Part shown: positions 1 through 57,868 of the stretch, piece by piece
Numbering within the stretch: the first letter of the stretch is position 1
Layout of the letters: every line of letters begins with the position of its first letter
Assembly (NCBI GenBank): GCA_000004985.1
Contig: GG738908.1
Reading direction: 5' to 3' (one strand)
Origin: Naegleria gruberi
Taxonomy: Eukaryota
DNA: 64,000 nt
Position numbers and translations under genes: made by a program
The notes under the pieces: model-generated
Told to the model about the DNA's origin: nothing
Database searches by the model: none
The model's input: only the letters and a program-made list of their open reading frames with translations

Positions 1-3000
1 CTAGCAATAACAATCAACGATCAATAGCCAAACCTCGACTTGTACCAATTATTCCCATTCAAAATATACAAAATCATCATCGAGGTTACTCACCATCCTC
101 CTCCGATTCATCTTCTTCTTCCTCTGAAGAAGATTCAGGCTCCTCTGACTCTCCCAAAGTGAAAACAAGTATAACAACAACACCAACAGGAGACAAGGAA
201 CCATCCTTCTCTTCATCCTCTTCATCATCAGCATTGACTACTAATCAGTCAAATCTTCACCTGACAGAGTATCACAATCATAATAATCGTTTTCATAATC
301 GTACGCCTTCTTCACCCACTGCCAGATTAACTGACGATGTTAATACAATTAAATTATCAACCATTTCTCCAACATCACCTTCTTCACCTTCTGTTCTACC
401 TTGGTCTCCACATACACCACCAGTCAACAAACAACAACAACCACAACAACATGCTCATCTCTTGACTCCCCTTCCAATTCACAAAATTTCTAGTCCTATG
501 GATTCATCAGATGAGCCAGCAAGATTGACTGCTAGAACACAACAACCACTTTCACAATCATTTTCACAGGATGTTTTACCACTTTTTGATGATAATCATG
601 TGGATCAATTGGTTACACATCGTACGAGTTCACTTAATTTACAGGCAAGTTATAAAGGTGGTCATATCAATCATGGCCATTCTCACGATCATGCCATACC
701 TAAAATTCAACAACGTAGAGGTCAATATTTTCCTCACGATCAATTCAAGATTGTAATGACTGATTTCACAATACAAATCACTGAAAAGAACAATGAATCA
801 ATAATTATTGAAGAGTATACAGAATTGAAATCTCTAGGAACTGGTGGACAAGCTACTGTTTTTTCAGGTCTTGAAAAGACTACTGGTGAAAGAGTGGCTC
901 TGAAGGTTATTAATGCTGGAGGAAATTCAGCACAATTGTGGAATGAAGTAAGTTTCTTTAGCATCATTGATTCTAATGTAATTTTCAGTTTAATATTTTG
1001 AGAGTTTTAAAGCATTCTTCAATTATACCCGTATGGAAGTTGTACGAAACAAAGAATATTTTCAATTCAATGATTATGATTACAATGCCAGTGTATATTC
1101 ATGGCGACATGACAGCATTTATTACCAAATTTGCTCCTAAATATGACACAAATCCATTTACACCACACGTAAGTAATTAATACTCTTAATAACAATATCT
1201 AACAATATTTTAACAGTGTATTATAGACATGGTTCTTCAAATAACGGATGCAATTCAATATACACACTCTAAAGGCATTATTCACAGAGATTTGAAACCT
1301 GACAATATTTTCATTTCTTCATTGGAACTTGATAAGAAGAATAGAAAATTAATAACATCATGTAAAGTAACTTTGGGAGATTTTGGACTTTCTAAGAATA
1401 TACAACAATCTATGGCAGTTTCTGTTGTTGGTACACTTGGATGGATGAGTCCAGATCATTTGAATGGTAATTTTTCTCTCAAAACAGACATGTGGAGTCT
1501 GGGATGTATTATATATTATTTGATCAGCTTGGATGCTGCTCTTTTAAACACTAACGATATGATTAACGAGAATCATGCTGCACACAAAGTGAAAATGAGA
1601 GAGAATATGTACAAGGTTTGTATTAATAATTTACGAATGTGTTTGTTTTAACATTGCATTTAGAAAATGAATTCAACATTACCTTCAAAATTTGTGGAAT
1701 TAATAGATATTGTTGTTACTAAGTTATTGGAAAAGAATCCAGAGGAGAGATTATCTTCTCATGAATTCTTTTGGGATTATTTGATACCTTGGAGATTTAG
1801 AATTGATGAAACCGAGTTGACAGAAGTAGTCCCTGGAAAAGAAGGTCTTTATTCTTGGAATGGATCTACTGTAACATTAAGAAGGGTCACTAAAGATCAA
1901 TTTAAAACACTTATTCAACTCCGAGATATTCAATACATTACTAAAGTTCTAGGATACTTTACAACGTATGATGAATTAACAGATCAAGAGGAGATTTACA
2001 TCCTCCACAAACCTCAAGGTACCAATTTGAAGGCCTATCTTGTTCCATCGAATCCAAGATATGTCTCCCTTCATGACAAATTGGAAATTTTGCTCAAAAT
2101 TGCAACAGCCATCGAAGAAATTAATAGAACTACAGATATTAGATTTATTATCAAATTGGACGAATCTAAAATATATGTAAGTATTGTGTAAAGATTGCTA
2201 ATTCGAATACTAATTATTTAGATTGATGAACAAGGAGAAGTTACACTCTCAATTTTGGATGCCGTTCAAGTACAACAACAACCTATGGAAAAGGATAACA
2301 TTTATAATTTATATTTCTTTAGTTTGGATTTATTGGATGATTGTAGAGAAATTTATAACTATCCATTTGAGGAATCATATTCTATGGTTAGGAAAAAGAA
2401 TAGTTTGATTGATTTCCCAAGATTACTAGTTTTCGTCTTTAGTAATTCAATAGTAACTCATCCAAGCAAATATTCATCCATTTACGTCTCACAAAAGTTG
2501 TACACTCAACTCTATATGAATCACAAGTTCCCAGGGGATAAATATGCAGCCGAAAGAAAGGAAAGTGTTACCTCATATCCATCTATCCATTCCCCTAATT
2601 CTTTGAGTATGACTCCTCCAACAGAGAATCCACTTGGACAATCACCACCTCCTTCATCAAATATTGCCATCATTACCCAAACAATGGAAGCAGAGAAATT
2701 GACACCAGAAGAGCAGTTCCATTGTTCACACAAGAGAATTAAGGAAATGATTAGAGCCAACTCAATCAGGCACATTCTCAAATCTTATCATATTGGAAGA
2801 GATGGAAATGATAAAAAGTGGAGTAAAATAATTATTGAAGAAGAAGAGGAGGGTGAAGTTCAAGCTTATGAAGAATACAGTCACCTACAAAACTATCATC
2901 TCACCTCTAACGCTCATGGTACTGATTCTCCTGTGGAAATTTCAGGAAAAGCAAAGAAAAACCCTGAGCTAGTTCATGTTTCTATTGAATGTTTGAACTT

Positions 3001-6000
3001 CCAACCAATTCTATTCCGTGATTATTTCAATGGAAAACAACTAGAACCATTGTATTTATATTGGTACTTGATCGATATCAAACAAAAGAGAAGAATTTCA
3101 GAGACCTTCAGTTGTGATATCAACTCTAGAGAAATGAGAATCTTCCTGGGTGAAGACAATGAGGATGATGATCCACTTTCAGTCAAAAAGAGCAGATGTG
3201 CTGGCTATGAAGTTGATTCTAGTAACTCTGACATCATGGTTTTGTTTGTTGTGACAAAGACTCTACAAGGTTCTGACAGCATGGACGCCTACATTAAACC
3301 TGGTAAATCCAAGTTGTCAGAGGAAAAGTTCACCAAATCTGTCAATACTCTTTTCCCTACCTTAAAGAATTATCAACAAGTTGTTTCATGGGCTTGTGAA
3401 CCTCTCTTTGATTTTGAAGGAAATTTGATTTTACCTAAAGAAATTGAAACATTCTATTATATGGATGAGGTCAGAAATGAACATTCCTTCTATGAATTCT
3501 TTGAAAAGAGAGATGTCAAGAAAGAAAAGTTAGTTCCAATGACACTCAAACTTCACTGTGAGCTTACCAGAGCCTACGAAGCAACAACTGTCTCAAGCAA
3601 AGCAGCCGAAAGCCTTACCGATTTGAATGACCAATTTGCCACTTTGGATTTGAAATCTACTTCGTTTTACTTGAAGCAAACTAATGGCAATAACAATGGT
3701 TCCTACATGTGTAAAATGTTCACATTCGCTCCTAACTTTAGAAGCTCACTTACAGACAGTAACAATTTGTATATCTATCCACTTTCTACTGCTTTCAAAC
3801 GTCGTTTATTCTTGAAAGATATGAATGTTGGTATTATTGTGAAATTTAAGAGGAACGATAGAGATATTAGTGATGAAGGAGAACAAGTTTTCATCAAGAA
3901 GAATAACAAGACCTTCAAGGAAGGATTCAGCTCTGTTTCTTATCAATCTACCTCACCCCAATTCAATGATGAGCTCAAATTGCAACTACCAGAACAATTG
4001 GGCTCTGGTGACCATTTACTCTTTACTTTTGTCAATGTGGATTGTGCTGGAGACGAGAAGAATGTACAAGTTGTTGGTCACTCATACTACATGTTGTTGG
4101 GAAAGCATGGTCTGCTTGCCACCCATGGAAATCTTATTTTACCAATCTATAAGAGACTTACCCCAAAGAGCTACTTGCAGGCTAACGAAGATACAAAGAA
4201 GAATGGAGAGTTCAAGGTTGAATTCCAACCAATTTCAACACTTTACACCACTGATATTAACCTGTACGAATTCTTCTCTGCCAACGAAGTAGTCAAAGTC
4301 ATGAAAAGTATTTATGGAGAAAATTTGGCTGAAATTCAAAATAACATTTCTAAAAAGTTGAAGAATTTGGAAAAGGTTGTTGATTTTAGAAATCTCATCC
4401 AATACATGCCCCAAATTGTGGATGAATTGCTGTTAATGATCACACTAAAGCAATTCCCAAATGTTCAATCAGGAGCTTTTGGTCTACTCAACTCATATCT
4501 AGATAAGCTCAAAAAGACTGAAAGAAATACCAAACAATATATTGAAAGATATATCAAGGAAGCTTTTGTTAATCATCCAGATTCTACAGGTCTTCTTTTT
4601 GAACAACTGTTGAAGAGATATGTCAGAAATCTTGATGAGGAACAAAAGATGCGAGCTGAAAAAAAGGGTGAAAATTTCAATTTTTCAGTGTACAATTTTA
4701 TATCAGGTGGAGGATCACATGACGGATTCTTGATCAACATGCCAAATGATAGCATTACCATTGAAAATAGTTCTATCTACTTCCAACTTATTGAAAAGTC
4801 TTTAATTCTTTACATGAATAATCAAAAGTTACTCAATCAACAATATGGTGCTTATAGCCCTTTGAGGCATTTAAGTAAGAAGAAAGATGATGTTCCTGCA
4901 CCATTCTCTCAACTTTTGGATCTTCTTTCAGAGTTGAGAACACTAGTTGTGAAAGAATGCAAGTTTAGATATTCTACCTCCATGTCAGTTGCCAAGCTCC
5001 TTGTCTCATCTTATGCACAATTCTTGTGTGGATTGATGAATTTGATAGATAGAGGATTTATCATTACAGAAATTGAAATGTTCTTGGATGAATTCCTCCC
5101 ATCAAAAGATCAACAATTTGAACTCTTACAAGAACTGAAGAATATCTTCTTGAAACAAATTTCTTGCTATGACCACTTCCTGTCCATGTGTCTTGCATAC
5201 AGCACCTCAAGCTGCTTGCAATATGTGAAAAAGAATGGTAATTATATTGTTTATCACATGTGTGACACTCACTACTTGTCTGGCATTTTCATCAAGAGAT
5301 TCCTCCTCGACACTCTCCACAAACAACGCAAGGTCAGAGAGAAGGCAGCCATCACATTTAACTTTTTACTCTCCCGACACGAATACGATGCTCGATTCCA
5401 AAGTAAGGAAGAAAGACAAAAGATTGCTTCACTCTACTTCCCTTTCATTATTATAATTTGTGACTTGTGGAAAACTTATGAGGAGCTCACTAAAGCAGAT
5501 TCCAAATCACTGAAGGATACACCAGACAAACGTCCAGAAGCACAAACCATGCTCATCAACTTTTTACACATATTAATCAATACGAGAAAGAAGGTATTCA
5601 GACAGTGGTGGACTCAAGAAGCTGTGGAGAGAAAGAAGCAATTCATCAAGATTCTCTCATCAGTTCCAAAACTATTCAAATATGCCCACTCGAGAAATTC
5701 CAGTGCTGATGAAGATGAAGATCCCTATCATCAACATCAACATCCAATGGCAACTCCAAGAAGTAGCAGTCTCAAACCAGTATCCTCCAGAGAACAATCC
5801 GATGGTGCTCTCTCTCCAAGAGGTAAAAAGTCTGGCACTATGAAAGAAACAACTGGAAGAAAGAGTTTCATTTTCCCATTCGCTTCAAAGGACGATTCAT
5901 TCGATCCAAGGAAGGTTCCTCTTTCTAGATTTTCCTCACCAACTGTTAACAAGCTCTCTCACAGAACTTCTGTCAGCATCTTGAGAAGTCAACAATCCAG

Positions 6001-6841
6001 CTATTCTCAACTTTTCAGAGGTGATTCTAAGAAAAAGGCCAAAGAACAACAAAACAGATGGAGAAGAATTCTCTCAATTCAAGCCAGTATTGCTACTATG
6101 AGAATCATGTCTTGGATTTTCGAAGAGGAACTCTATCAACAACAGCAAAATGCAAGACCAAGTAGTCCTGATGATCTCACTTCGGATTTGTCCTATCTGA
6201 AAATCGTTTTGGAATTCTTCTTTTCACATTTGGAAGTTGAGCAATCCGAAACAACTTATCAATTGGTATTCCAATTACTTGCTCTCTTTGTGAAGAATTA
6301 CAAGATATACAGTTACTATTATTCACGTGAAGATTTAATTAGAAAGGTTAATGAATTTGCAACAAGATCAACCGTTGAATCTACCAAACTTACTGCACTT
6401 GCTTTCACAAAATGGGTCAAATTACAGCAGCAATTATTTGCATCCTTGTCTTTCTCTGCAAATTCTGTCAATAGACAATCCTCTTACAATATCAAACCAA
6501 TAGACAGAACCAAGTCATCAGGTGCTTCCAAATTTGATGGAATATTAAACATTTCTGACTTGTTGTGGAATATTAAAGTCAGATACAAGGAGAGACAATA
6601 CGTAGAACAGTTGAAGGGATGGCTCAACAGTCAACAACCAGATGTGATCACTGCTGTCGAATATTTGGAAAAGGAATTTGTCAAGTACATGTATCCAGAT
6701 GATTTCACACCAACTACAAATGTAAACAGTAAGGCAATGAGAGTTTCTGATAATGACAATGACGAAGAGGATCTTGAAAGTGTTCCTTCTGAAGAGGAAG
6801 GTGAAGAACTCTCGCTCTTCCAAGCACTACGACTAATGTAA
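1..6841 (+). CDS. 5'-partial multi-exon gene encoding, from N- to C-terminus: a low-complexity N-terminus, a Ser/Thr protein kinase domain, a degenerate kinase-like segment, and a ~1500-aa DOCK-like region (C2/DHR-1-like 'GDHLLFTFVNVDC' motif plus a helical DOCK mid-region)
   Basis: The reading frame is open from the window edge, so the gene starts upstream. The kinase carries GTGGQATVF, VALKV, HRDLKPDNIF, DFGLSK and GTLGWMSPD, and its subdomain XI follows a splice. The exon model is 3..947, 989..1168, 1217..1615, 1664..2176 and 2222..6841. All junctions are GTAAGT/GTTTGT...AG with phases conserved. The 45-nt intron at 2177..2221 contains an in-frame TAA and joins ...KLDESKIY to IDEQGEVTLSILDAVQ... 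in frame. The large exon contains HLLFTF and ASLYFPFIIIICD / QWWTQEAV motifs that resemble the DOCK DHR-1 and pre-DHR-2 regions. I recalled these motifs from memory and have not searched them. It ends ...LFQALRLM* at 6839..6841. Confidence 0.6.
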
Positions 6842-10300: not shown

Positions 10301-11636
10301 TTATTTTCTTAAAATTCGGCCTCTGAACAAATCACTATCCAAGAATCGAACATAAATATCCTGAAGTGAATCAGATTCGATATTCTTGATTAATTCAGTA
10401 AAGAGATGAGGGACAGATCCTTCATTCTTGTATCGTTGCATGATGGCTTCTCTCACATTGGAGGCTACATTGAGTTCAGTTGGTGAGTTTGAATTTAAAT
10501 AGGAATCTATAATCTTCTTTGCTAATGCCTTTCGTTTGGTTTCGTTTTGAACTTTCTGATAACAGTGAGCTTCTTCCCAAAACATTAAACTTTCAGCAGC
10601 GTAAATCTTTGTAGAAAATAACTTTAAAACCTTTCTATAATTCTTATCTGCCAAAATCTTTTGAAGTGGAAATTGCTGAGTTAAATCTTGATTTGAAATT
10701 TCTTCAATTTGAGCAGAAAAACAAGAATTTGATTTCTTCTTTGCAGTTTTGAGAATTGGTTCATAAATTGGCTTTACCTCTACAGCAATCTTTTGAAATT
10801 CTGAAATTGTCGTTTCAATATTTTCAGTTCTTGACATTTGACTTGACATTTCGGCAGAAGAATTTACATATTCTGATTGATCTTTCAATAAATCAAACAA
10901 ATCATCACTTCCTTTTCCTTCCAAGTCAAGTAAAACTTCCATAAAATCTGGAACTACATAAACCTTATCATTCAAATGTCTATTTACAATCTTTCCATTT
11001 GCAATTACGAAAGTTGCCGAAAGCTGACTTCTAGATGCTCGCTCAGCTACATAATTAGTCAATTTGTAACCTTGAGAAAGTGCCACTTTCACAGTTTCGA
11101 TGACAACTTTCAGATTATTTGACATGTCAGATGCATTACTGGTCTTGACACCAAATTGTTGGTAATAGTAATTTCCTTCAGGATCTGCAACTCGTAGGAA
11201 TTTACTCATCAATTCTCCTCGTTGGTTCACTTGATTCTTTGTTGAGTTCAGAGTTGGACGAATCTTGTGAAGTTTCGAATTGTTTGTTCGAAAGTGGTTT
11301 TGGCATTCCAGCCCGTGAAAAGAATTCATCTGCCTCTTGCTCACTTTCCTGATGTACAAAAACAGGTATACAGTTTAGTTTAATCAAGCTGGATAAACTA
11401 TTTACAATATCCACAATACTTCTCTGACAGAAAACACATCCAAAATATCGAAGAAACACCAACAAAACAACATGCTTCTTGGAAAGATCAGCAACACTAA
11501 CTCCAATGTTAGTTATCATGGTTTCTAATAAATGATGTGGAAGGCCATTAAGACCAGAAATGTTATTCGAAACTAAATGTTGGTTCTCCGAAGAATCTAT
11601 TGGAGTTGTGAAGGTTTGGATGTTATCTTGTGACAT
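10301..11636 (-). CDS. RGS-domain protein with N-terminal thioredoxin-like (PRXL2/AhpC-TSA-like, CxxC) half; the gene model has an internal frame discontinuity
   Basis: The minus-strand ORFs 11202..11636 and 10301..11359 overlap by 158 nt in different frames. The N-terminal part has VVLLVFLRYFGCVFCQ (CxxC) and IPVFVHQESEQEADEFF, as in PRXL2/AhpC-TSA-like proteins. The C-terminus has an RGS pattern (FWEEAHCYQKV...IIDSYLNSNSPTELNV...YVRFLDSDLF). No clean GT-AG intron longer than 40 nt reconciles the two frames. Confidence 0.6.
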
Positions 11637-11825: not shown

Positions 11826-12095
11826 ATGAATCAATTAACATCACTTGATGTATACGATAATCAAATTGGTATAGAAGGATCCCAATTCATAAGTGAAATG
11901 ACACAATTAACATCACTTAATATATGTTACAATCAACTAGGTGATGAGGGAGCCAAAATCATAAGTAAAATGACACAACTAACATCACTTGATATATTTA
12001 GCAATGAAATTGGTGATGAGGGAGCCAAATCAATAAGTGAAATGAAACAATTAACATCACTTAATATTGCTGACAATCAGGTTGTTTTCTATTAG
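11826..12095 (+). CDS. Short ORF made of RNI-type leucine-rich repeats (ISEMTQLTSL.I..N.IGDEGAK); probably a gene fragment or relic
   Basis: An 89-aa ORF made of four copies of a ~28-aa repeat (QLTSLDVYDNQIGIEGSQFISEM...). The repeat continues upstream across stops, and no start or extended ORF is found. Confidence 0.3.
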   Translation: MNQLTSLDVYDNQIGIEGSQFISEMTQLTSLNICYNQLGDEGAKIISKMTQLTSLDIFSNEIGDEGAKSISEMKQLTSLNIADNQVVFY

Positions 12096-15543: not shown

Positions 15544-16658
15544 NNNNNNNNNNNNNNNNNNNNNNNNNNNNNNNNNNNNNNNNNNNNNNNNNNNNNNNNN
15601 NNNNNNNNNNNNNNNNNNNNNNNNNNNNNNNNNNNNNNNNNNNNNNNNNNNNNNNNNNNNNNNNNNNNNNNNNNNNNNNNNNNNNNNNNNNNNNNNNNNN
15701 NNNNNNNNNNNNNNNNNNNNNNNNNNNNNNNNNNNNNNNNNNNNNNNNNNNNNNNNNNNNNNNNNNNNNNNNNNNNNNNNNNNNNNNNNNNNNNNNNNNN
15801 NNNNNNNNNNNNNNNNNNNNNNNNNNNNNNNNNNNNNNNNNNNNNNNNNNNNNNNNNNNNNNNNNNNNNNNNNNNNNNNNNNNNNNNNNNNNNNNNNNNN
15901 NNNNNNNNNNNNNNNNNNNNNNNNNNNNNNNNNNNNNNNNNNNNNNNNNNNNNNNNNNNNNNNNNNNNNNNNNNNNNNNNNNNNNNNNNNNNNNNNNNNN
16001 NNNNNNNNNNNNNNNNNNNNNNNNNNNNNNNNNNNNNNNNNNNNNNNNNNNNNNNNNNNNNNNNNNNNNNNNNNNNNNNNNNNNNNNNNNNNNNNNNNNN
16101 NNNNNNNNNNNNNNNNNNNNNNNNNNNNNNNNNNNNNNNNNNNNNNNNNNNNNNNNNNNNNNNNNNNNNNNNNNNNNNNNNNNNNNNNNNNNNNNNNNNN
16201 NNNNNNNNNNNNNNNNNNNNNNNNNNNNNNNNNNNNNNNNNNNNNNNNNNNNNNNNNNNNNNNNNNNNNNNNNNNNNNNNNNNNNNNNNNNNNNNNNNNN
16301 NNNNNNNNNNNNNNNNNNNNNNNNNNNNNNNNNNNNNNNNNNNNNNNNNNNNNNNNNNNNNNNNNNNNNNNNNNNNNNNNNNNNNNNNNNNNNNNNNNNN
16401 NNNNNNNNNNNNNNNNNNNNNNNNNNNNNNNNNNNNNNNNNNNNNNNNNNNNNNNNNNNNNNNNNNNNNNNNNNNNNNNNNNNNNNNNNNNNNNNNNNNN
16501 NNNNNNNNNNNNNNNNNNNNNNNNNNNNNNNNNNNNNNNNNNNNNNNNNNNNNNNNNNNNNNNNNNNNNNNNNNNNNNNNNNNNNNNNNNNNNNNNNNNN
16601 NNNNNNNNNNNNNNNNNNNNNNNNNNNNNNNNNNNNNNNNNNNNNNNNNNNNNNNNNN
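15544..16658. other. Assembly gap (1115 N)
   Basis: A run of n. Both flanks carry partial paralogous genes, so the true size is probably underestimated. Confidence 0.99.
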
Positions 16659-18358: not shown

Positions 18359-18408
18359 NNNNNNNNNNNNNNNNNNNNNNNNNNNNNNNNNNNNNNNNNN
18401 NNNNNNNN
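18359..18408. other. Assembly gap (50 N)
   Basis: A run of n flanked on both sides by the same ~900-bp sequence. Confidence 0.99.
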
Positions 18409-25700: not shown

Positions 25701-25800
25701 NNNNNNNNNNNNNNNNNNNNNNNNNNNNNNNNNNNNNNNNNNNNNNNNNNNNNNNNNNNNNNNNNNNNNNNNNNNNNNNNNNNNNNNNNNNNNNNNNNNN
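22769..25800. other. Assembly gap (3032 N)
   Basis: A run of n. Confidence 0.99.
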
Positions 25801-31900: not shown

Positions 31901-32477
31901 TGGTAAGTTTTAAAATATTCACATTGTATTCATTGAAAATTATTAGAAACCTGGCAATGTATTGCTTGACAACAACAATAGATGTAAAATTGCTGATTTC
32001 GGCTTGAGCTTGCCTCTTTCGCAATCCAATACTACAATGACCAAAAATATTGGCACTTTTATTTACATGGGACCTGAATCTATCAGTTCAAACACAACAA
32101 GTAATTCAGGTGTTGACAAATCTCAAAGAGCTCCCAAAGTTGATGTGTACAGCTTTGCTATTATTATGTGGGAGCTATTCTTTGAGGTATCTCCATATTC
32201 TCAATCGGAGAAGGTTAATTATGTATTACAACATTCAATAGGTGATATAATTGCACGAGTTTTACAAGGAGAAAGACCAAGTATTCCATTTCAAAATGAA
32301 ATTGAGCTCGAGGAATGGTTACTATTGTATCCAGTACGTGAAAACCTATCAAAAGAAGCACTTGTGAAGAGTATTCTTAAGTATTGTAATATTGTCAGGC
32401 AGTGTTGGCATTCAAATCCAATGGAGAGGCCTTCGTTTTCACAAATAATTCAATTATTGAATGGTTTGACGAATTGA
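28924..32477 (+). CDS. Receptor-like protein kinase. It has a signal peptide, a ~740-aa ectodomain with parallel beta-helix (PbH1, 'GGAI') repeats, one transmembrane helix and a TKL-type kinase domain. 2 exons
   Basis: The exons are 28924..31902 and 31947..32477. The intron falls inside the kinase catalytic loop: HRDL|gtaagtttt...tattag|KPGNVLLDNNNRCKIADFGLS. The signal peptide is MDSNNQHHQILIIWLLLLAILLLLTSLPTVDC. The transmembrane helix is FTLFLAILLPVSLIVFGLGIIVTICIM. The kinase has GGQGVVYVGNW...VAIKSLK, DFG and (C)WHSNPMERPSF. Confidence 0.75.
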
Positions 32478-32743: not shown

Positions 32744-33327
32744 ATGTCTCATGCAATTGGTGTATTGTTATTGTTCATTATTTGTATGATGGTAAGTAGA
32801 GTTGCAACCATAAATTAATTTATTCTTCGTGATGATAACAGAGTGTTTTGAGCAATGTTCTCGGCTCAGCCTCATCATCTTCATTATCGGGATGTGTAAC
32901 AGATGTCTATTCAATTCCCTATGAAATGTTTGCGAGTCGAATTATTGTTAATAAGGATCAAGATTTGCAATACAAAGTCAAGATTGTAAAGAAGGCTAGT
33001 AATACAAGGAGCAGTAATCTTCTCTCCTCTGATAATACATTGGTAGAGCTCAAGATTGCCTATGATGCTGGATTGAGCGGTGTTGGATCTGTTGGCTATT
33101 CTTTCAATGACACATTAGGATCCATCGTTTTAGAAATCAAATCCAATACTAATGATAATAGTAATAATAATAATAATAATACTGATATCAGCAATCCTAA
33201 CAATTCAACCATTTTCAATTCAACACAACCTGTAAATAATTCATCCAACAATAGTAATTCAACAACAACAACTAATCCTCAAACAAGTACAAATCCAACA
33301 AAACCTTCACCCACCATATTATGGTAA
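32744..33327 (+). CDS. Putative secreted Ser/Thr/Asn-rich protein (2 exons)
   Basis: Exon 1 is 32744..32791 (MSHAIGVLLLFIICMM, hydrophobic leader). The intron has a gtaagtag donor and an ataacag acceptor. Exon 2 is 32842..33327. The C-terminal third is a poly-N/S/T tract. Confidence 0.4.
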
Positions 33328-33770
33328 AACCGAAAAAGTCTTTGGTTGTTTCATGTGCATCATCGAATAGAGGATTTGTGGAGGGTGTCATTGTTAAATT
33401 GATGAAGAATGGTCTATTCCTTATCTATTCATCAGTTGCATTGTTGTTATTGGGTATTTTCAATTCCATTCATATTACCCAAACAAGAAATGGATTAATA
33501 TTCTCAATGATAGTGTTGGTAATTGCATTTATTGTAATGGGAGGTCAAGTATCACATGCAGTCACAGATCAAGTTTCAGAGATGAAAAGTGGTCTTTCTT
33601 GTGCCATTCCAACTATTACCATCACTGTTCCATCCACATTTGAAATAGATTTAAAACAGGAGGATCCTTCACTTTCACCTGAATTCAAAACAGAAGTGAA
33701 CTTTCTTCCAAAACAAATACAGCTTCATTTCAAAATGGAAGAAATGGATATCAAGGCGAAGAGGCTCTAA
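33321..33770 (+). CDS. ORF with two predicted TM helices; could be a separate small gene or an unresolved exon of a neighbouring gene
   Basis: A 149-aa ORF in a different frame from both neighbours. The TM segments are LFLIYSSVALLLLGIF and LIFSMIVLVIAFIVMGG. Confidence 0.25.
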   Translation: MVKPKKSLVVSCASSNRGFVEGVIVKLMKNGLFLIYSSVALLLLGIFNSIHITQTRNGLIFSMIVLVIAFIVMGGQVSHAVTDQVSEMKSGLSCAIPTITITVPSTFEIDLKQEDPSLSPEFKTEVNFLPKQIQLHFKMEEMDIKAKRL

Positions 33771-47560: not shown

Positions 47561-49061
47561 TTACAACATGTTCATATCTTTCATATAATCTACGATAATA
47601 CTGTTTTTGACATCATCCAAAACTTTTTTCATTGTACCTGTATCTGTGGCACAAGTTATGTGATGATAAAGTTGACGTCCTGTCTTTGAACTTTGAGATT
47701 TGGCAGCTCCAGCTCGAGAAATGAATTGATCCATAATGTAAGTTCTGGCCTTACCAACATCTCGTCCACCTGTATATTCAGGGAAACACTTGTCCAAATC
47801 CTTAACTTTGATTTTCTCTTCAAACAAGTCATTCTTATTGAAGAAAATAATAAGTGGAGTTGTTTTAAAGTAACGAGATTGACAAATTTCAGTAAAAAGA
47901 GTCAATGATTCAATCATACGATTCATATCCTTATCTTCAAATAAAACTTGATCGTATTCACTCAATGCAGCAACGAAAATAATTGCTGTAACATCATCAA
48001 AACAGTGAATCCTTTTTAAAATAACATCAATTGACATTAATTAACAATGATGATGAATGGTAAATAAACAGTTTTCACACAAGTGACAATAACCATCAAT
48101 AACAATATAGATCAAAGATTTAGCCAAATAGTATGTTAATTAACAAGACACAATAACAAAAACTAACCATTTTCTTCTTTCGTTTCTTTGACCACCAACG
48201 TCAATCATCTTGAATTTGTATCCTTCAATACTAAAATCTGCTTCTACGATACCAACTGTCTTGACTCTTGAACGGAGAACATCTTGTTGGGTTGGTTGAT
48301 AATTGTTACTTGTCAATCTTTCAATATCTCTCAAATAACTATTACAAAATAACATAAAAACATTATATTCGAAACACATTCGAAACCAATAGAAACTTAC
48401 TATTCAGCAGAATCATTCAATTGATATTCACTTCTTCTCCTATAAGCTTCTTGAATACCAGCATCAGACCACAGTAATTTAATATCCTTTCCGAGTTCAG
48501 GTGAAATTATACTTCCAGCATTGAGAATAATTTGTTGTTCTGGAATTCTGGTAAACTTTTCTGCACGTTCGATATTTGATGAATTTGAAAATGAAATTTG
48601 TGGATTCAGAGTTTGCATTGCTTCGATCAAAACTCTGATGGATTGTAAAGTATTTCCATAGATAACATCTTTGAAACGTATACATTCTTCTGGTGTGTAG
48701 CCTTTGTGGTGAATAATTTTCATTTGTTTAAAGATGGTGGATTTCCCTGATTCACCTATTGTTGTTGATATTTAGATTAGTTTCGTCATGTTTAGTTTTG
48801 TTGTTGTTGTTGTTGATATTTAGATATTATACGATAAATAATCATTGGTATTATTCAATTATTGGTATTGTTATTCACAATCGTTCACAAAAAGTATGGA
48901 CGAAACACTTAAGAATATATCACACGAAACTAAACTAAACTTACCAGCTCCTAGTAACAAAAGTTTCAACTCTGACTTTTGTTTTTGATTATCCCTAGTC
49001 AATTTAGCATTAATTTCCTTGTTTTTGGTGGATTCTGCTGATTGTTCTTTAAAGCAAGGCA
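47561..49061 (-). CDS. Heterotrimeric G-protein alpha subunit, 4 exons (367 aa)
   Basis: The exons are 49061..48945, 48755..48401, 48338..48168 and 48021..47561. All introns are GTAAGT/GTTAGT...AG. Total CDS is 1104 nt, or 368 codons. The exons encode in turn MPCFKEQ...[24 protein letters not shown]...[14 protein letters not shown]...[19 protein letters not shown]...[14 protein letters not shown], and [26 protein letters not shown]...[12 protein letters not shown]...TCATDT.... Confidence 0.9.
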
Positions 49062-49838
49062 TCGTTTGATGTGTTAAAAATTTTAGTCTAGATTCGAATA
49101 GTAATAAATTGTTGTTGTAGTAATATTTGATGAGAGATAAAATATTCTTGTTGTTGAGACTGTTGTGGACGTTTTGATTTTTTTTTCTTTCTGCTTGTTC
49201 ACAAGTCACCTGACAGCTGTCAAGGCGAGAAAATTAAACGGGAAAGAGGCAAACAGTCTATCGGCATTCCTGCTGAAAAATATTGCCAATAATTACCCAG
49301 CATGAGATTTACTTTGGAATAATTGTAACGAATTTTTGAATATCTCTCATCTTCTCAGTTGACTAATTTAAATATATTTAAAAAATATTTAATATTTAAA
49401 AATTGGCAAATTGATGATGGTTGGTAATCAAGTGGCAACAAGAGTAAAGGTTGAAAGGTTTCAACAACTATTCTAATTGATAATACTAAACTGAAAATCA
49501 TTTCCTTATTCAAAACCTTCCGCATAGTTTCCATAAATGGGACTTGTTACAATGAGCAAAGAATTATTCCAATAACTGCATTATTCAAGATTCAAAGATG
49601 AAGCTGAAATGTTGAATGTTCTTGTCATTTCCCGCCAAATTACTACAATTCAAAATGAAAAAAAGCAAACAACAACAAGGCTTTGAGTGTTTGATGGTTT
49701 GTTGTCATTAGCCCTTGAGATTTAGATATTGAGACGAAAATCCGCAAAGAAAATAATTATCTAGTTAATTAATTAGTAAAATTGAAAAATTACAAAAATG
49801 TGTGTTTTATATTGGAAGAAGTATTTGTTCAGTGAAAT

Positions 49839-52472: not shown

Positions 52473-55400
52473 TTAAGCAGTATTTTGAGTTCTTTGATTT
52501 GTTTTCTTGTGGAATAAAACTGTTCCGTAGTGTTGATTACCCATTACAATATTGCCATGATCCATTGGTATTTCATCTTTTCCAGTAAGTGTGGGCACAA
52601 TACTAACCATGCTTGGTATTGTTCTGTGTTTATCACCCCAACCTTTCTTCAGCTTGGTACCTATGTAAAATAAGACAAATATTGCCACCAATATAATCAC
52701 CAAAACAACCACAACAGAAATAACTGCTCCTATGATAATGGAGGCAAATTGAGCGTTTGCATCCACAACAGAACAATCAGATCCCAAAAATCCTGATAAA
52801 CATTGACATACACCATCCAAACAAATTCCATTCAAACTGCAATGATTTGGACAGGTAACATTTGCACAGGAAGCTGGGTTGGATTCACATGCATCAGCAG
52901 CAACTGCATTAGCACTAGCCATTGCAAAGGAAGTGTCACCAGTTGAAATTACATCGAACAAACAAGTCTGATAGAAAGTTCCAGTTAAACCAAGATTTGT
53001 GCAAATCTTTTTAGCAAGTTCGTTCAAGGTTTGATTTTCGGATGTGGCAGAAATAGCTGGTTCAAAATCGACAATGTTAATTGAGTTGTACGTTTCATCT
53101 GCTGTATAAATGAAATAGGATTCGCTTTGTGGCACTCTCCAGCTCTCTCCAAATCGTTTATGAATATCTGTGGCAGATGGATCATTCAATACAAGACCAT
53201 TCCTCAAAGTAAATTCATTGGATGCATTACCATCTAGTGTTCCATATAAACCTCCCTTTTCAGTTCCTGTAAAGTTAGTGTCCTTTGCAGGTGAGAAGGA
53301 GACACTAAGCCACTTGATTCCATCATTTTTCAATCTGAGCTGGCCTGAAAAGATTCCAGAAAACTTGATTAAAATTACTTTGAATGGAATGGAAGTGTCG
53401 TTCACCTTGTAAGAATTCACTGGATCCTTCTCTTCAACAATAGTAGCACCTCCATTCAATACATAGACTGGTTGTGAAGGTGGTTTGTAAGCGAGAGCAG
53501 TTTGTTGAATTTGTGGAATTTCATTAGTATCAGGATCTCTTTGATATTTGATTTGATCATAAAAGTTTTGTAAATCTTTTGGTATTTCAAGTGTTGCATT
53601 ATTTTCCACTGCTTGAACATTAACAACAGTTTCCTTGAGGTCTACAACTTGTCCATTGACATATACTACCACATCATTCGTTCCATCTGAAGAAACTTCA
53701 ACTGTATCAGTTCCACTTTGGAATGAAATAGCTTTCATGCAAGAGGTCTTGGAGTCCTTAGTACATTTAAGCAATCTTCCTTGCATGGTAAATTCAGTTA
53801 GATTTGTACAAGTAAAACTCTCCCAATGAATTGAAAGAGTACAACAGACCATCCACAGTTCTCAAGTGGATATCCCCAAAGGCAAGTACTCTGTTGAAAA
53901 GTTCAAACTCTTCAATCTTGTTGCACTTTGCTCCTGCAAAACCTGGGAAGCAACTGCAGATATTTGGGCCAACACAGGTTCCGTGCTCTGAACACCAGTC
54001 TTTATGAGCACAATGGAATTTAGAACAGTCATCGCCCATCCAGCCCCATCTACAAACACAATCATTCAATCCAACACATTTTCCTCTCTTTGCTCCTCCA
54101 CAATTTGAATAATTTGCACACAGTGAGTTGTCAAAAGTAATACAATCCAACTCTGGTGGAACATATGTAGCATCTTGGACGAAGATTGTTGAATACGAGT
54201 CAACTTTCAAGTACACCATGTTTGATTTGCAATCATACGATGTTTCTCCATCAGTTCTATTGGATGGGGATAGAATATATTCCTTATTTGGGCTAACAAT
54301 GTTAATAGAGATAGGGCCCCATGCACTGAACTTGAATCCCAAACTTATACCATATTTTCCTAACCAAGATATTTCAATCTTCTCTGGGGTACCAACAACT
54401 CCTAGCCATTCAACAGTATAACTGTTTGTGATATTATCCAAATATAGAGCTCTGTACTGCCATTCTCCTCCAGTTGTTAATTCTCCCAACAAATTTTCAG
54501 TTTGAAGATTTGATGTAGAGTTAATTCTTGTTTGATCGACAGAGTTTGTAATAGCTGGTGAGACAAACTCCAACTTGGACCAATTTACAGTCTCGTCACA
54601 CATGTATGCATTCCATGCTGAAACGTAAAAGCACTTATCAAAATCTACCATAATATTGTTTGCTGGAATGACTCTAGAATTGACTCTATTGAATCCGGCA
54701 GGAACAGTAATGTTATAGGATAAGCAACCATCTAGATCGATAATAATAGAGTGTTTGTAATTATCGTGTAGACCATTACTCTTACCAACCAATAGATATA
54801 TGACGTTAGAGTTGTGGAACTTTAAATTCTTGACGAGGTAATCGCCTTGAACCATTCTTGCCATCTTATCATTCTTAATACTAATAGCATTTGCTTTTCT
54901 GTTGCAATTATCAACAAAATTGAAAAACTCAATTCCGTCCAAAGTCATTGGTTTTCCGTCTCTGTGAAATTCTACACCAACAATTGGTTGGGTTCTGTAA
55001 TTTGCATAGGATCTGTGATAGGTAGAATTTGGATTTTTGTAATTACCACAAGAATAACAACCATAAGCACAACTACCAGTATTTCCCTTATTTCCAGACT
55101 CTCCAATGAAAATGCAGTCTTTGGCTGTGAACTTGTCTTGGTTGATCACATTGAAAGTATAACCAATAGGATTATCTGCATAGATACTATCCTTCATGGC
55201 TATTTCTCCTTGCACATAGGCAAATTGTCCTTGTACCTTATTTCTATAAGAGACGAGTTTTGTAAATTCGGCTACGGCCCAAGGATTTTCGGCACTACCA
55301 CACCTAATCTTTTGGAAGATTTCTAATCTAGGATCGGTACAAACAAAGAAATCGTGCCATAAATTGAGACCATGCTGTCTATTACTATGAACTGTGTTGT

Positions 55401-57868
55401 TGTAAAATTTTCCCCAATACCATCTGCTGGGTTGGATGTAAGGAGACATACTTGGACCTAAACTGTAAGGTTCTAATTGATACCAAATTCCATGACCTTC
55501 ACTACCAGCAGCTCTATTGTTGATAAGAGTATTGTGAGGATTAGTCATCCAGAATGTTGCTGGGGAAGCATCATGATTGGTAGGACTTAGAATAGCTCTC
55601 GAGTCTGGGATGGCTTTTGTTACAAGTCCCAAACAATTCTCAATAATATTTCCCTCTTCAACTGCATCTTCCAAAAAGAAAGTATGTCCAAAAACATTGT
55701 AAGCAACAATACCCTCAGCGTGTAAGTTATTCACGCCGTGGAATGTAATTCCTCTCTGATAGGTGTCGTGGATTGATAACTTTTTAACATAGGAAGTTGA
55801 AGCATTGTTAAACAAGTGGAAGTGAACTGGATATCTGAAAAATGTGTAAATAAATTGAATTCAATTTTTGAATAACTTACCTTCCCAAAGTTCCTGCCTG
55901 ACCACATCTCCTAAATTCTGCATTATTCAATCTGATGTACTTGGCTGTTCTCATGTAAATAGTGTGACATCCGAACAAGCTGTTATCACTACTTTCATCT
56001 CCTTGCACCTTAATGTTGTGTGTCAATAAGGCGACTTCAGCTCTCTGGTCAAACTCTACAACCGTACCATCTGCTTTTGTGTAGTATTCAGTTTCAGCGT
56101 AGTGACCATAAACAAGTGGTGAGTGCAATTCAAAAGCTGTTCCACTAATTCTTCTGGTGATAAATCTTCTCTCGGCCTGATACAAGTCATAATCTGTCGA
56201 TGCAATCACAATCTCATCACCCACATCCCACAATGTCTCTTGAGCGAGGTAAATGATGTTATCTCCAACTTTTGATGATTGTTTCAATAAAGTCCAAGTT
56301 ACCTCATGTCTCTTTCCATGCAAACTCAAGACGCCTCCACTCATCACAGCAATATTCTTGTTACCAACACCCTTATCACTCAATGGTGTCTTCTCTCCAT
56401 ACAGAGTGATTGTTGCTTTGTGTTGATATGGTGTTGACTCGTTACCGATTTGGAGAGAACCAGTAACAACCATACTGTTCATTTGTAATTGAAGATCAAG
56501 AGTTTCATTTCCGTAATCATTATTATCAAATATGAGACATCCATAAACCATGACTGTATCCAATTTAGGTGGGCTGACATCTAGAATAATTGTCTTGTCA
56601 GATGGAATTGTCACAAATGAAGCAGATGCAAGAGTTTTACAGGTTGTGTTCTTATAACTTGTTTTACATATTGGATTGTTTTCAACATAGTAGGTTGTTG
56701 AACAATTTTCAGACATTGAATCATTGGAACAATAAACGAAAGAGAAGGAACATGAAGGCATTGTAAAACTTGTAGTATTAAGCCCATTTAGCCCCATCTC
56801 ACATAATGAACAATTTGTTCCACTATCTGTAAAATTGCAAATGTCAGTTAAATTCATAGCCACTCTTTCTGTACAATTTACCTCAGTGTCATTAAATGAA
56901 TCACAAATGGTAAGGGAATAGCTACTTTCGCATTCGACAATTTGCTGAGTTGAAGGACATTTTACAGTTTCATTTGATACGGTGCTATAATTCGAATAGG
57001 TAGAGTTCACTAATTCTGGGAAATATTCTGACCATTTCACAGTCTCTGAAGGACAATTATCACCAATTCCAGTTCCATAAGGATCTGTTGTGGTTTTGGT
57101 AAAAATTATTGCTTGTTTTCCAACTCCATAAGCATTATATCCTTTAAATTTGTTATAGGGAAGAACTCTGAAACTGTATGTTACATTCTGATCCAAATTA
57201 AATCTAGTGTATGTTTCAGCTTGGTGAGTCTTGTACATTACAGTTACATATCCCAAAGAATTGAGAGTTGACATTTGTATTTGATAGTAACAAATAACAT
57301 TTGTCGTATCATTTGATAATTTCCACCTCAGCTCAATACTAAAATAAGTTGGTATTGCCACAAAATTTTCAACAATTGAAATGTTGGCAGCTGTTGAAAA
57401 TCTATTAGTAATATTTCCATCAGATGGATCTGACAAATCCGAGAGTAAATACCTCCTTGGAGCTCCCTGTCCAATCGACCAATAACAACAAGGGTCTCCT
57501 AGTTCATCACCATTTGTTAGACCATCTCCATCTGAGTCCATCAAGCAAAATGTTTCATCCCAAACATACTTATTCTTTGCAAAGTCCTTTGCAAACTTGG
57601 TCATTGTCCCATTCTTGAAGAAGATATTAGTAAAGAGTTGTGAGTCAGGATAGATTGCACCATTTGGTAGTTTTGTGATATCAAAATCTGCATATAAACT
57701 CGATAAGGGTTTTGAATACGTCGAAGGCAATTGGCTCACCAATAGAAGAATATATACAATGATAGAAGAACAATACAAAAACCATGATATCTTATCATAT
57801 CGGCTTGTTCTTATTGAGGAGTAAGATGATGAATAGTCCGAGTAGGACCTCTGTTCTCTCCTCATCAT
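52473..57868 (-). CDS. Large type-I membrane glycoprotein. It has a signal/anchor, a TSP3-like Ca-binding DxDxDG motif, an FN3-like segment, a G8-type domain, a PbH1/beta-helix region (CEMIP/TMEM2/fibrocystin-like), EGF-like Cys modules, a TM and a short tail. 3 exons (1759 aa)
   Basis: Exons are 57868..55881, 55834..53850 and 53779..52473. Intron 1 runs GTAAGTTATTC...TTTTTCAG (46 nt). It splits ...RCGQAGTLG|R from YPVHFHLFNNASTSY. Intron 2 (70 nt) has a GTCTGT donor and a CATGCAAG acceptor. Total CDS is 5280 nt, or 1760 codons. The TM is IIIGAVISVVVVLVIILVAIFVLFYI. The EGF-like part is CPNHCSLNGICLDGVCQCLSGFLGSDC. The family call rests on the 'GRYPVHFH' junction and the GG / G8-like glycine pattern, which I recalled rather than searched. 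Confidence 0.65.

What the first reader, a model, noticed from the sequence alone, without database searches (positions are those of the whole stretch)
10301..11636. RGS domain protein with a thioredoxin-fold (PRXL2-like CxxC) N-terminal half and an unresolved frame break
The C-terminal ~120 aa have a clear RGS signature. The N-terminal ~200 aa resemble the PRXL2/AhpC-TSA-like redox fold (VVLLVFLRYFGCVFCQ, IPVFVHQES...). Two overlapping ORFs in different frames (158-nt overlap at 11202..11359) cover the gene. No GT-AG intron longer than ~40 nt fixes the frame. This is therefore either a sequencing indel in a low-complexity stretch (...SQDSSNSELNKESSEPT...), a very short intron, or a recent pseudogenising frameshift. 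A redox-sensing module on a GTPase-activating protein for G-alpha would be a notable regulatory coupling. An intact G-alpha gene sits 36 kb away in the same window.
Basis: partly seen in the sequence, partly recalled or inferred. Interest (0 to 1): 0.5.

Follow-up and report, generated by a model that had tools for sequence, protein, structure and literature searches.

The report
Redox-domain RGS gene with frame break
This is one Naegleria gruberi gene that joins a thiol-redox (thioredoxin-fold, CxxC) domain to a G-protein "off-switch" (RGS) domain, an undescribed but conserved combination, and its apparent split into two reading frames is most likely a one-base indel in the draft assembly rather than an intron.

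Summary
On the minus strand, ORF A (11636..11202, 144 aa) and ORF B (11359..10301) overlap by 158 nt in different frames. ORF B ends in an RGS domain (Pfam E=1e-17). The window is Naegleria gruberi. Joined, the two ORFs align end to end with single-exon proteins of N. lovaniensis, N. fowleri, a N. gruberi paralogue and an environmental relative. A neighbouring DOCK gene (70% identical) shows that the locus is the positional orthologue of N. lovaniensis C9374_009195.

The N-terminal half is a peroxiredoxin-like thioredoxin fold with a CVFC motif. It needs residues from both ORFs (AlphaFold pLDDT 87.8). A family profile matches human PRXL2B at E=2.7e-9 and NCBIfam "SelL-related redox protein" at E=1.6e-18. 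The fusion recurs: 47-49 of 149 cluster representatives related to the N-terminal domain carry RGS, and 46 of 49 keep CxxC. Named examples are Naegleria and Acrasis.

The break lies in a variable disordered insertion, most likely at about 11216-11230. The region has no canonical donor, whereas five real introns in the window start GT[AT]AGT. A second break without an intron at about 53.8 kb favours assembly error, but a real recent frameshift is not excluded. GenBank holds only the 144-aa fragment. The redox-to-GAP coupling is inferred, not shown.

The parts
10301..11636 (-). Whole gene (conceptual single-exon CDS of about 445 codons, including the stop at 10301-10303). It is the N. gruberi positional orthologue of N. 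lovaniensis C9374_009195.
   Evidence: End-to-end alignment of the joined ORFs with P0001-P0004. The orthologues are single continuous ORFs. Synteny with the DOCK gene.
11202..11636 (-). ORF A, 144 aa. It is annotated in GenBank as the stand-alone 'predicted protein' NAEGRDRAFT_73873 (XP_002671141.1). It holds only the first half of the thioredoxin fold plus the out-of-frame tail RRIDE*.
11427..11438 (-). CVFC (CxxC) redox motif at the start of helix 1 of the thioredoxin fold.
   Evidence: The first Cys is invariant and the second is at least 90% conserved in alignments A3 and A4. 46 of 49 RGS-fused relatives keep CxxC.
10886..11555 (-). SelL-related / PRX-like2 (PRXL2-type) thioredoxin-fold domain. 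It spans the frame break.
   Evidence: AF2 pLDDT 87.8, pTM 0.86. Foldseek hits to AhpC, PRXL2B and Prx6. Profile against PDB: 9us9_A at E=2.7e-9. NF040769 at E=1.6e-18.
11222..11291 (-). Lineage-specific, length-variable, low-complexity insertion inside the thioredoxin fold (SNKQFETSQDSSNSELNKESSEPT). The frame break must lie here, between the conserved GMPKPL (11292-11309) and RGELM (11207-11221).
   Evidence: Alignment A1. Low pLDDT of 53-59 for this stretch. Stand-alone relatives lack the insertion (two matched stretches).
11216..11230 (-). Most likely position of the +1-type break (one base too many or two too few), in the context GAA CCA ACG AGG AGA.
   Evidence: Codon log-odds: frame A totals +7.5 and frame B -5.6 over the overlap, with the best change points at 11206-11224. 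Homology requires frame B from CGA GGA GAA (RGELM) onward.
10322..10666 (-). RGS domain.
   Evidence: Pfam PF00615 at E=1e-17. PDB RGS10 at E=1.7e-8. The Asn equivalent to RGS4 N128 and the D/R of DxYxRFL are conserved.
10715..10741 (-). Basic plus Cys motif (KKKSNSCFS) just upstream of the RGS box. It is conserved in all Naegleria homologues. A role as a lipidation or membrane-contact site is inference only.
   Evidence: Alignment A1 columns 392-410. Coordinates.

Best explanation
The interval holds one intronless Naegleria gruberi gene for a two-domain protein of about 445 aa.

Domains. The N-terminal domain is a peroxiredoxin-like thioredoxin fold of the SelL-related / PRX-like2 (PRXL2) type. 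It has a CVFC dithiol motif and a disordered, length-variable insertion. The C-terminal domain is an RGS domain that keeps the Asn and Asp/Arg residues which contact G-alpha switch regions in R4/RZ-type RGS proteins.

The frame break. In this assembly the reading frame is broken by a +1-type indel (one extra base or two missing). It sits in the last codons of the disordered insertion, at about 11216-11230. The break is not an intron. It is most likely a base-calling or consensus indel of the draft assembly, possibly a chimera of haplotypes that differ in insertion length (my estimate about 0.6). Otherwise it is a very recent real frameshift, possibly in one allele only (about 0.35). Because of the break, the public annotation holds only the 144-aa N-terminal fragment, and I found no annotation for the RGS half.

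How the protein works (inferred, not shown). The RGS domain accelerates GTP hydrolysis on one of Naegleria's many G-alpha subunits. The CxxC domain either gates that activity through its thiol/disulfide state or carries out a thioredoxin-dependent reduction at the site of G-protein signalling.
For: - Organism: two window ORFs are identical to N. gruberi proteins XP_002671142 and XP_002671144.
- Family: the joined ORFs align over 94-97% of their length with P0001-P0004 at 45-54% identity.
- No intron in relatives: the homologues in N. lovaniensis and an ENA contig are single uninterrupted ORFs.
- Orthology: the convergent DOCK gene is 70% identical between the window and the N. lovaniensis locus.
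- One domain across the break: the AF2 model built from alignment A4 has pLDDT 87.8, with strands from both ORFs in one sheet. Foldseek gives 135 PDB hits at E<=1e-3, led by AhpC, PRXL2B and Prx6.
- Domain type: profile A4 hits PRXL2B 9us9_A at E=2.7e-9 over the whole domain. NF040769 matches at E=1.6e-18. Of 149 relatives, 98 hit AhpC-TSA, 67 hit AhpC-TSA_2 and 47 hit RGS.
- Motif: CxxC is kept in 46 of 49 fused proteins.
- RGS: E=1e-17, and the key residues are conserved in the alignment with RGS10.
- Not degenerate: the window copy keeps 127 of 150 columns (85%) that are invariant in four homologues, like the intact P0003 (85%) and P0004 (83%).
- Not an intron: five canonical introns in the window start GT[AT]AGT with GC 0.24-0.26, and the overlap has no such donor.
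- Second break: a break without an intron splits a VWD domain at about 53.8 kb.
- Draft quality: the window has five N-runs.
Against: - No reads, traces, transcripts or independent assembly of N. gruberi could be reached. No near-identical sequence was found elsewhere. Error and real mutation therefore cannot be told apart directly.
- The break is not in a long homopolymer, so it is not a classic error context.
- The insertion varies in length between species, so it is also a natural hotspot for real indels.
- Single-sequence Pfam scores for AhpC-TSA and AhpC-TSA_2 stay below the gathering scores even with the insertion removed.
- The full-length AF2 model was poor (pLDDT 45), so nothing is known about contact between the two domains.
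- No biochemical data exist for any member of the family.
Confidence: 0.8

Rival explanations
1. The frameshift is real. The N. gruberi NEG-M copy, or one of its alleles, is a very young pseudogene or null allele of the redox-RGS gene, and the paralogue XP_002674500 (P0004) covers the function.
For: A paralogue with the same architecture exists in N. gruberi. The break lies in a length-variable insertion where real indels occur between species. It is not in a homopolymer. I found no annotated full-length model.
Against: Apart from the single break, both frames are fully open. Conservation of family-invariant columns (85%) equals that of intact homologues, so any inactivation would be extremely recent. 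A second similar break in an unrelated gene 42 kb away is explained more simply by assembly error than by two coincident young pseudogenes.
Confidence: 0.3
2. A very short or non-canonical intron restores the frame. The only candidate that keeps the flanking motifs is a 55-nt GT..AG interval at 11259..11205.
For: It restores a continuous ORF (...FETSQDS|KFLRV...). Canonical introns as short as 44 nt exist in this window, at 31903-31946.
Against: The donor is GTCCAA, whereas all five checked introns have GT[AT]AGT. Its GC content is 0.42 against 0.24-0.26. It would remove RGELM, which is readable in frame B and matches TRGELM in N. lovaniensis. The orthologues have no intron here.
Confidence: 0.03
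3. Programmed +1 ribosomal frameshifting at ACG-AGG-A (11224-11218). The rare AGG codon would stall the ribosome as at the yeast Ty1 and Ty3 sites, giving ...SSEPT-GELMSKF...
For: The codon-statistics change point falls on this site, and AGG is disfavoured in frame (score -1.1). The resemblance to CUU-AGG-C (Ty1) and GCG-AGU-U (Ty3) is from my own knowledge, not from a test.
Against: None of the five homologues has a frameshift. The product would lose the Arg before GELM that four of five homologues keep. I know of no precedent in Heterolobosea. A single 7-nt resemblance is expected by chance.
Confidence: 0.02
4. Two genuinely separate genes, as in the current annotation: a 144-aa protein plus an independent RGS protein starting at an internal ATG (MSKFLRV..., where the ATG overlaps the ORF A stop in ATGAGTAA).
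For: GenBank annotates ORF A alone. An ATG lies 5 nt before the ORF A stop.
Against: Each piece would carry only half a thioredoxin fold, since the strands of one sheet come from both ORFs. That Met is an internal conserved residue in the intact homologues. All relatives are single polypeptides.
Confidence: 0.02

Closest known systems
Uncharacterised heterolobosean 'RGS domain-containing proteins': N. lovaniensis C9374_009195 (P0001), the N. fowleri homologue (P0002), N. gruberi XP_002674500 'G protein signaling regulator' (P0004), and Acrasis kona KAL0479601, KAL0490379 and KAL0490954.
   Same: Same two-domain architecture, the same FLRYFGCxFC motif and the same RGS box. P0001 is the positional orthologue.
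   Different: Those genes are intact single ORFs, while the window copy has a frame break. In public records only the RGS half is recognised for the Naegleria proteins (precomputed Pfam shows PF00615 only). I found no publication on the N-terminal domain.
PRXL2B / prostamide-prostaglandin F synthase (PDB 9us9, 9usa) and the Pfam AhpC-TSA_2 (PRX-like2) family.
   Same: Peroxiredoxin-like thioredoxin fold with a CxxC motif in the context (L/F)R(R/Y)FGCxxC. The profile match covers the whole domain at E=2.7e-9, and Foldseek TM (target-normalised) is 0.67-0.71.
   Different: Identity is only 14-15%. The window sequence scores below the Pfam gathering score. It has a disordered insertion of about 25-50 aa. 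The GG of the PRXL2 'Q.GG' motif is replaced (QLSATF). PRXL2 proteins are not fused to signalling domains.
NCBIfam NF040769, SelL-related redox protein (stand-alone bacterial CxxC proteins of about 175 aa, such as P0011, P0018 and P0023).
   Same: Closest sequence family, with E=1.6e-18 and both halves of the domain matched. They share GVSVA(E/D)LS..VLLVFLR(H/Y)FGCxFC and DP...Y..FG.
   Different: The score of 66.9 bits is below the curated cut-off of 120. The bacterial proteins are single-domain and lack the insertion and the RGS domain.
Animal R4/RZ-type RGS proteins (RGS10, RGS17, GAIP/RGS19, RGS1-4).
   Same: Best solved-structure matches for the C-terminal domain (E=1.7e-8 to 2e-6). The G-alpha-contacting Asn and the D..R of DxYxRFL are conserved.
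   Different: About 25-30% identity. The N of the SEEN motif is Ser here. The N-terminal partner domain is different. The only redox link I know of for animal RGS4/5/16 is oxidation of the N-terminal Cys2 in the Arg/N-degron pathway (my own knowledge), which is a different mechanism from a fused CxxC domain.

Membership tests
RGS domain (Pfam PF00615) | Score above the Pfam gathering threshold over the full model | tested here: met
   65 bits against 23.9, model positions 2-115 of 117.
RGS domain (Pfam PF00615) | Conserved G-alpha switch-contact residues (equivalents of RGS4 E87, N128, D163 and R167) | tested here: met
   The alignment to RGS10 shows E in yAaES, N in teLNV, and D and R in qDiYvRFL. 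The N88 equivalent is Ser. The mapping to RGS4 numbering is from my own knowledge.
RGS domain (Pfam PF00615) | GAP activity towards a G-alpha subunit | not testable with these tools
   Needs a single-turnover GTPase assay.
PRX-like2 / PRXL2 (Pfam AhpC-TSA_2, PF13911) | Score above the Pfam gathering threshold | tested here: not met
   15.1 bits for the joined protein and 20.3 bits with the insertion removed, against 27. 67 of 149 relatives match at E<=1e-3, best 4.6e-16.
PRX-like2 / PRXL2 (Pfam AhpC-TSA_2, PF13911) | Thioredoxin fold with CxxC at the N-terminus of helix 1 and homology to a solved PRXL2 protein | tested here: met
   AF2 pLDDT 87.8. Foldseek hits to PRXL2B 9usa and 9us9. Profile A4 against 9us9_A at E=2.7e-9 over profile positions 10-170. 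CVFC at 11427-11438.
SelL-related redox protein (NCBIfam NF040769) | Score above the curated cut-off (120 bits) | tested here: not met
   66.9 bits, E=1.6e-18, in two stretches split by the insertion. Stand-alone relatives score 118-152 bits.
Canonical peroxiredoxin (AhpC/TSA, PF00578) | Pfam gathering threshold and the peroxidatic PxxxT/SxxC motif | tested here: not met
   16.8-20.8 bits against 26. The sequence before the first Cys is VFLRYFGC, with no Pro at -7 and no Thr/Ser at -3 (read directly from the sequence). The motif definition is from my own knowledge.
Spliceosomal intron of N. gruberi | GT[AT]AGT donor, AG acceptor, AT-rich sequence, and length 3n+1 to repair the frame | tested here: not met
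   There is no GT[AT]AGT in the overlap. The only frame-restoring GT..AG longer than 40 nt has donor GTCCAA and GC 0.42. The five control introns have GT[AT]AGT and, for the three measured, GC 0.24-0.26.

The most novel reading that the evidence does not exclude
The SelL-like CxxC domain is a built-in thiol redox switch or redox enzyme that directly gates the GAP activity of the fused RGS domain. If so, Naegleria, including the pathogen N. fowleri, together with Acrasis and unidentified environmental eukaryotes, couples oxidant or oxygen status to shut-off of heterotrimeric G-protein signalling through a dedicated protein family. That family has at least 49 cluster representatives at 50% identity, and 46 of them keep CxxC.
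Probability: 0.25. Interest if true: 0.65.

Novelty: new variant of a known kind. Interest (0 to 1): 0.4.

Why it matters
RGS proteins are usually regulated through accessory domains. A fused CxxC thioredoxin-fold module would be a direct, testable route from cellular redox state to deactivation of G-alpha. I found no description of it in the searchable literature.

The family is conserved across Heterolobosea, including N. fowleri, where G-protein signalling has been proposed as a drug-target area (PMC9283941).

There is also a practical point. The N. gruberi reference annotation appears wrong here. XP_002671141.1 is a 144-aa fragment and the RGS half appears unannotated. At least one further gene in the window shows the same kind of break. 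Domain inventories for this genome, such as RGS counts, may therefore be undercounted.

Tried and rejected
- Splice enumeration. I enumerated every GT/GC-AG and AT-AC pair that repairs the frame. All either delete conserved residues or are 10-16 nt long. The one 55-nt candidate was rejected on donor, composition and conservation.
- Independent copies of the locus. Exact-product look-ups for three window proteins found no N. gruberi contigs. The ENA contig L004, from a N. gruberi-like organism, stops about 1 kb short of the gene. The JGI metagenome scan returned only distant relatives of at most 39% identity, apparently stand-alone (matches confined to the N-terminal domain).
- Searches with ORF B. 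A protein search with ORF B alone found no near-identical hit. Exact look-ups of five Met-start versions of ORF B found nothing.
- Weakness of negative search results. The word-indexed protein search gave inconsistent lists: P0010 was missing and P0001-P0004 were missing. Its negative results are therefore weak evidence.
- Full-length AF2. With a 6-sequence alignment it failed (pLDDT 45), so there is no information on domain-domain contacts.
- PDB search with the shallow profile A2. It gave only E=0.45 to PRXL2B. The deeper profile A4 was needed.
- Programmed +1 frameshifting and termination-reinitiation at ATGAGTAA. Both were considered and judged unlikely, because all homologues are in frame.
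- Genomic linkage to the G-alpha gene. Rejected as evidence, because both gene families are very large in Naegleria.
- Literature. Searches for a Trx, AhpC or peroxiredoxin-RGS fusion found nothing relevant.

Full report
**1. What is in the sequence**

On the minus strand, ORF A runs 11636..11202 (144 aa, ATG start). ORF B runs 11359..10301 (352 codons from the preceding stop). Frame B is one base downstream of frame A. Repair therefore needs removal of 3n+1 bases or addition of 3n+2.

ORF B residues 232-346 (window 10322..10666) match Pfam RGS at E=1e-17, 65 bits against a gathering score of 23.9. ORF A alone gives only a weak AhpC-TSA hit (E=0.002, below threshold).

**2. Organism and annotation**

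Two other window ORFs are identical to N. gruberi XP_002671142 and XP_002671144, which lie on a 259-kb scaffold. The window has five N-runs, so it comes from a gapped draft scaffold.

ORF A is annotated on its own as the 'predicted protein' NAEGRDRAFT_73873 / XP_002671141.1. No annotated protein matching ORF B was found, either by exact look-up of five Met-start versions or by search. The search tool gave inconsistent lists, so this absence is only weak evidence.

**3. It is one gene**

The joined ORFs align over 94-97% of their length with four proteins:
- N. lovaniensis C9374_009195 (P0001): 50% identity in the BLASTP search, 54% in the alignment.
- A N. fowleri protein (P0002).
- An ENA environmental protein (P0003).
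- A N. gruberi paralogue, XP_002674500 'G protein signaling regulator' (P0004, 45%).

The N. lovaniensis and ENA genes are single uninterrupted ORFs of 1530 and 1314 nt.

The DOCK-C2 gene at 2255..6841 converges on the 3' end of the RGS gene. It is 70% identical to the DOCK gene in the same relative position in N. lovaniensis. The window gene is therefore the positional orthologue of C9374_009195, and P0004 is a paralogue.

The window copy keeps 127 of 150 columns that are invariant in the four full-length homologues (85%). The intact P0003 and P0004 score 85% and 83% in the same leave-one-out test. Apart from the frame break, it shows no sign of decay.

**4. The N-terminal domain**

- *Pfam, single sequence.* Scores are below threshold: AhpC-TSA 16.8-20.8 bits, AhpC-TSA_2 15.1-20.3 bits. 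This holds even with the insertion deleted.
- *Search of 1.84 billion representatives.* A six-sequence profile found 436 relatives. Of the best 149, 98 match AhpC-TSA, 67 match AhpC-TSA_2, 44 match Redoxin and 47 match RGS.
- *PDB.* A 64-sequence profile with the window sequence first hits human prostamide/prostaglandin F synthase (PRXL2B, 9us9_A) at E=2.7e-9 over the whole domain, followed by ResA.
- *NCBIfam.* 'SelL-related redox protein' NF040769 matches at E=1.6e-18 in two stretches, at 66.9 bits against a cut-off of 120. Stand-alone relatives of about 175 aa score 118-152 bits.
- *Structure.* AlphaFold2 with that alignment gives pLDDT 87.8 and pTM 0.86. The beta-strands come from both ORFs: residues 31-36 and 64-70 from ORF A, and 123-126, 183-188 and 191-197 from ORF B. 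Only the insertion (about residues 90-113) has low confidence. Foldseek against the PDB returns AhpC, PRXL2B, Prx6 and BCP, with 135 hits at E<=1e-3.
- *Motif.* CVFC (11427..11438) sits in FLRYFGCVFCQ, matching LRRFGCVVCR of PRXL2B. The canonical peroxiredoxin PxxxTxxC motif is absent, as can be read directly from the sequence.

The nearest curated family is the SelL-related group.

**5. The fusion recurs**

A local RGS HMM confirms an RGS domain C-terminal to the redox domain in 49 of the 149 representatives, with a median length of 420 aa. Of those, 46 keep CxxC.

Named members come from Naegleria and Acrasis kona, for example KAL0490379 'Rgs9' and KAL0490954. The others are unnamed JGI, ENA and Logan proteins.

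Literature searches found no description of this architecture. The N. fowleri G-protein paper lists 79 RGS proteins outside the 7TM class and does not mention redox domains.

**6. The RGS domain**

The best solved relatives are RGS10, RGS17, RGS1-3 and GAIP, at E=1.7e-8 to 2e-6. The alignment conserves the Glu of the SEEN segment, the Asn equivalent to RGS4 N128 (ELNV) and the Asp/Arg of DxYxRFL. The residue numbering is from my own knowledge. GAP competence is therefore plausible but untested.

**7. The frame break**

*Position.*
- Homology fixes frame A up to GMPKPL (11292-11309) and frame B from RGELM (11207-11221), since N. lovaniensis reads TRGELMKKFLRV. The break therefore lies within 11222-11291.
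- That stretch is a low-complexity insertion whose length differs in every homologue.
- Codon log-odds trained on window ORFs favour frame A across almost the whole overlap (+7.5 against -5.6). The best change points fall at 11206-11224, with only small score differences between them.
- Taken together with the RGELM constraint, this places the break at about 11216-11230. Deleting one A from CCAACG would give ...SSEP-RGELM...

*Not an intron.*
- I enumerated all splice pairs that repair the frame. Only one GT..AG longer than 40 nt keeps the flanking motifs (11259..11205, 55 nt). It has donor GTCCAA and GC 0.42, and it would remove RGELM.
- The controls are five bona fide introns in the window: three in the G-alpha gene (189, 62 and 156 nt), a 44-nt intron in a kinase-like gene at 31903-31946, and one near 62.6 kb. 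All begin GT[AT]AGT. The three G-alpha introns have GC 0.24-0.26.
- The overlap contains no GT[AT]AGT.

**8. Error or real mutation?**

No direct evidence was reachable. There were no N. gruberi contigs in the encoding index and no near-identical sequences elsewhere.

The indirect evidence is as follows:
- The gene is otherwise intact and constrained.
- The scaffold is gapped.
- A second frame break without an intron, in the same +1 direction, splits a VWD domain at about 53797-53810 in an unrelated EGF/CEMIP/VWD gene. Joining the frames raises the VWD score from 15.4 to 31.0 bits and extends the match to profile positions 3-95.

Two such breaks in 64 kb fit draft-assembly indels better than two coincident single-lesion pseudogenes. 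My estimates are about 0.6 for an assembly or consensus artefact, about 0.3-0.35 for a real recent frameshift that may be allelic, and less than 0.1 in total for an intron, programmed frameshifting or two separate genes.

**9. Mechanism (inference)**

The RGS domain would act as a GAP on a Naegleria G-alpha. The conserved CxxC domain has two possible roles. It could make that activity depend on thiol/disulfide state. Or it could be a thioredoxin-dependent reductase, as in PRXL2B, that the RGS domain brings to activated G-alpha. Neither is shown.

The G-alpha gene at 49062..47561 is intact (Pfam E=1e-130). It is one of many, so its distance of 36 kb is not evidence of a functional link.

**10. 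Verdict**

The frame break is mundane and most likely an artefact. It has caused a mis-annotation.

The architecture itself is a conserved but undescribed variant of multidomain RGS proteins. It is moderately interesting and directly testable using the intact N. fowleri and N. lovaniensis orthologues.

Noticed in passing
window 52473..55815 (-), break at about 53797-53810: A second frame break without an intron. Two overlapping minus-strand ORFs encode one EGF/CEMIP/VWD protein. Joining them raises Pfam VWD from 15.4 to 31.0 bits (profile positions 3-95). There is no GT[AT]AGT donor. The shift is in the same +1 direction as in the RGS gene.
   Followed up: partly
window 11202..11636 (-): GenBank XP_002671141.1 (NAEGRDRAFT_73873, 144 aa 'predicted protein') is the N-terminal fragment of the redox-RGS gene. 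No annotated product was found for the RGS half.
   Followed up: yes
window 2255..6841 (+) and L001 6441..9530: A DOCK-C2 gene that is 70% identical to the DOCK/kinase gene convergent with the N. lovaniensis orthologue. Local synteny is conserved, but the gene in between differs: F-box/LRR here, HSP20 in N. lovaniensis.
   Followed up: yes
window 47561..49062 (-): An intact G-alpha gene of 364 aa with four exons. Its introns are 189, 62 and 156 nt, with donors GTAAGT, GTAAGT and GTTAGT. Pfam G-alpha E=1e-130.
   Followed up: yes
window 31903..31946 (+): A canonical 44-nt intron (GTAAGT...TTAG) that splits the kinase motif HRDL|KPGNVLLD. It shows that very short introns exist in this genome but keep the consensus donor.
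   Followed up: partly
window 10715..10741 (-): A basic plus Cys motif (KKKSNSCFS; NKESSSCLCFS in N. lovaniensis) conserved just upstream of the RGS box. It is reminiscent of the palmitoylated Cys strings of RZ-type RGS proteins (from memory, untested).
   Followed up: no
window 11202..11211 (-): The ORF A stop and the first in-frame ATG of ORF B overlap (ATGAGTAA). The Met is an internal conserved residue in intact homologues, so this is probably coincidence.
   Followed up: partly
window 11218..11224 (-): ACG AGG A, with a rare AGG codon, lies at the statistically best change point. It has a superficial resemblance to the yeast Ty1 and Ty3 +1 frameshift sites.
   Followed up: partly
L003 2797..3585 (Logan SRR15442814): The homologue P0005 ends at a stop codon right after the thioredoxin-fold domain (…SSDNSFFK*). 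No RGS is encoded downstream in any plus-strand frame. It may be a stand-alone form or a contig artefact.
   Followed up: partly
window 15544-16658, 18359-18408, 22769-25800, 43843-44355, 44424: Assembly gaps (N-runs). They create spurious long 'ORFs' of X residues in mechanical ORF lists.
   Followed up: yes
window 33276..33770 (+): Two more pairs of overlapping ORFs in different frames, upstream of the 1946-aa ORF. The sequence is low-complexity and has no canonical donor. It is undetermined whether they are chance, 5' exons or further frame breaks.
   Followed up: no
window 11826..12095 (+): A short ORF of LRR_6-type leucine-rich repeats (E=3e-18) immediately upstream of the RGS gene. It is probably a fragment or exon of a larger LRR gene.
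   Followed up: no
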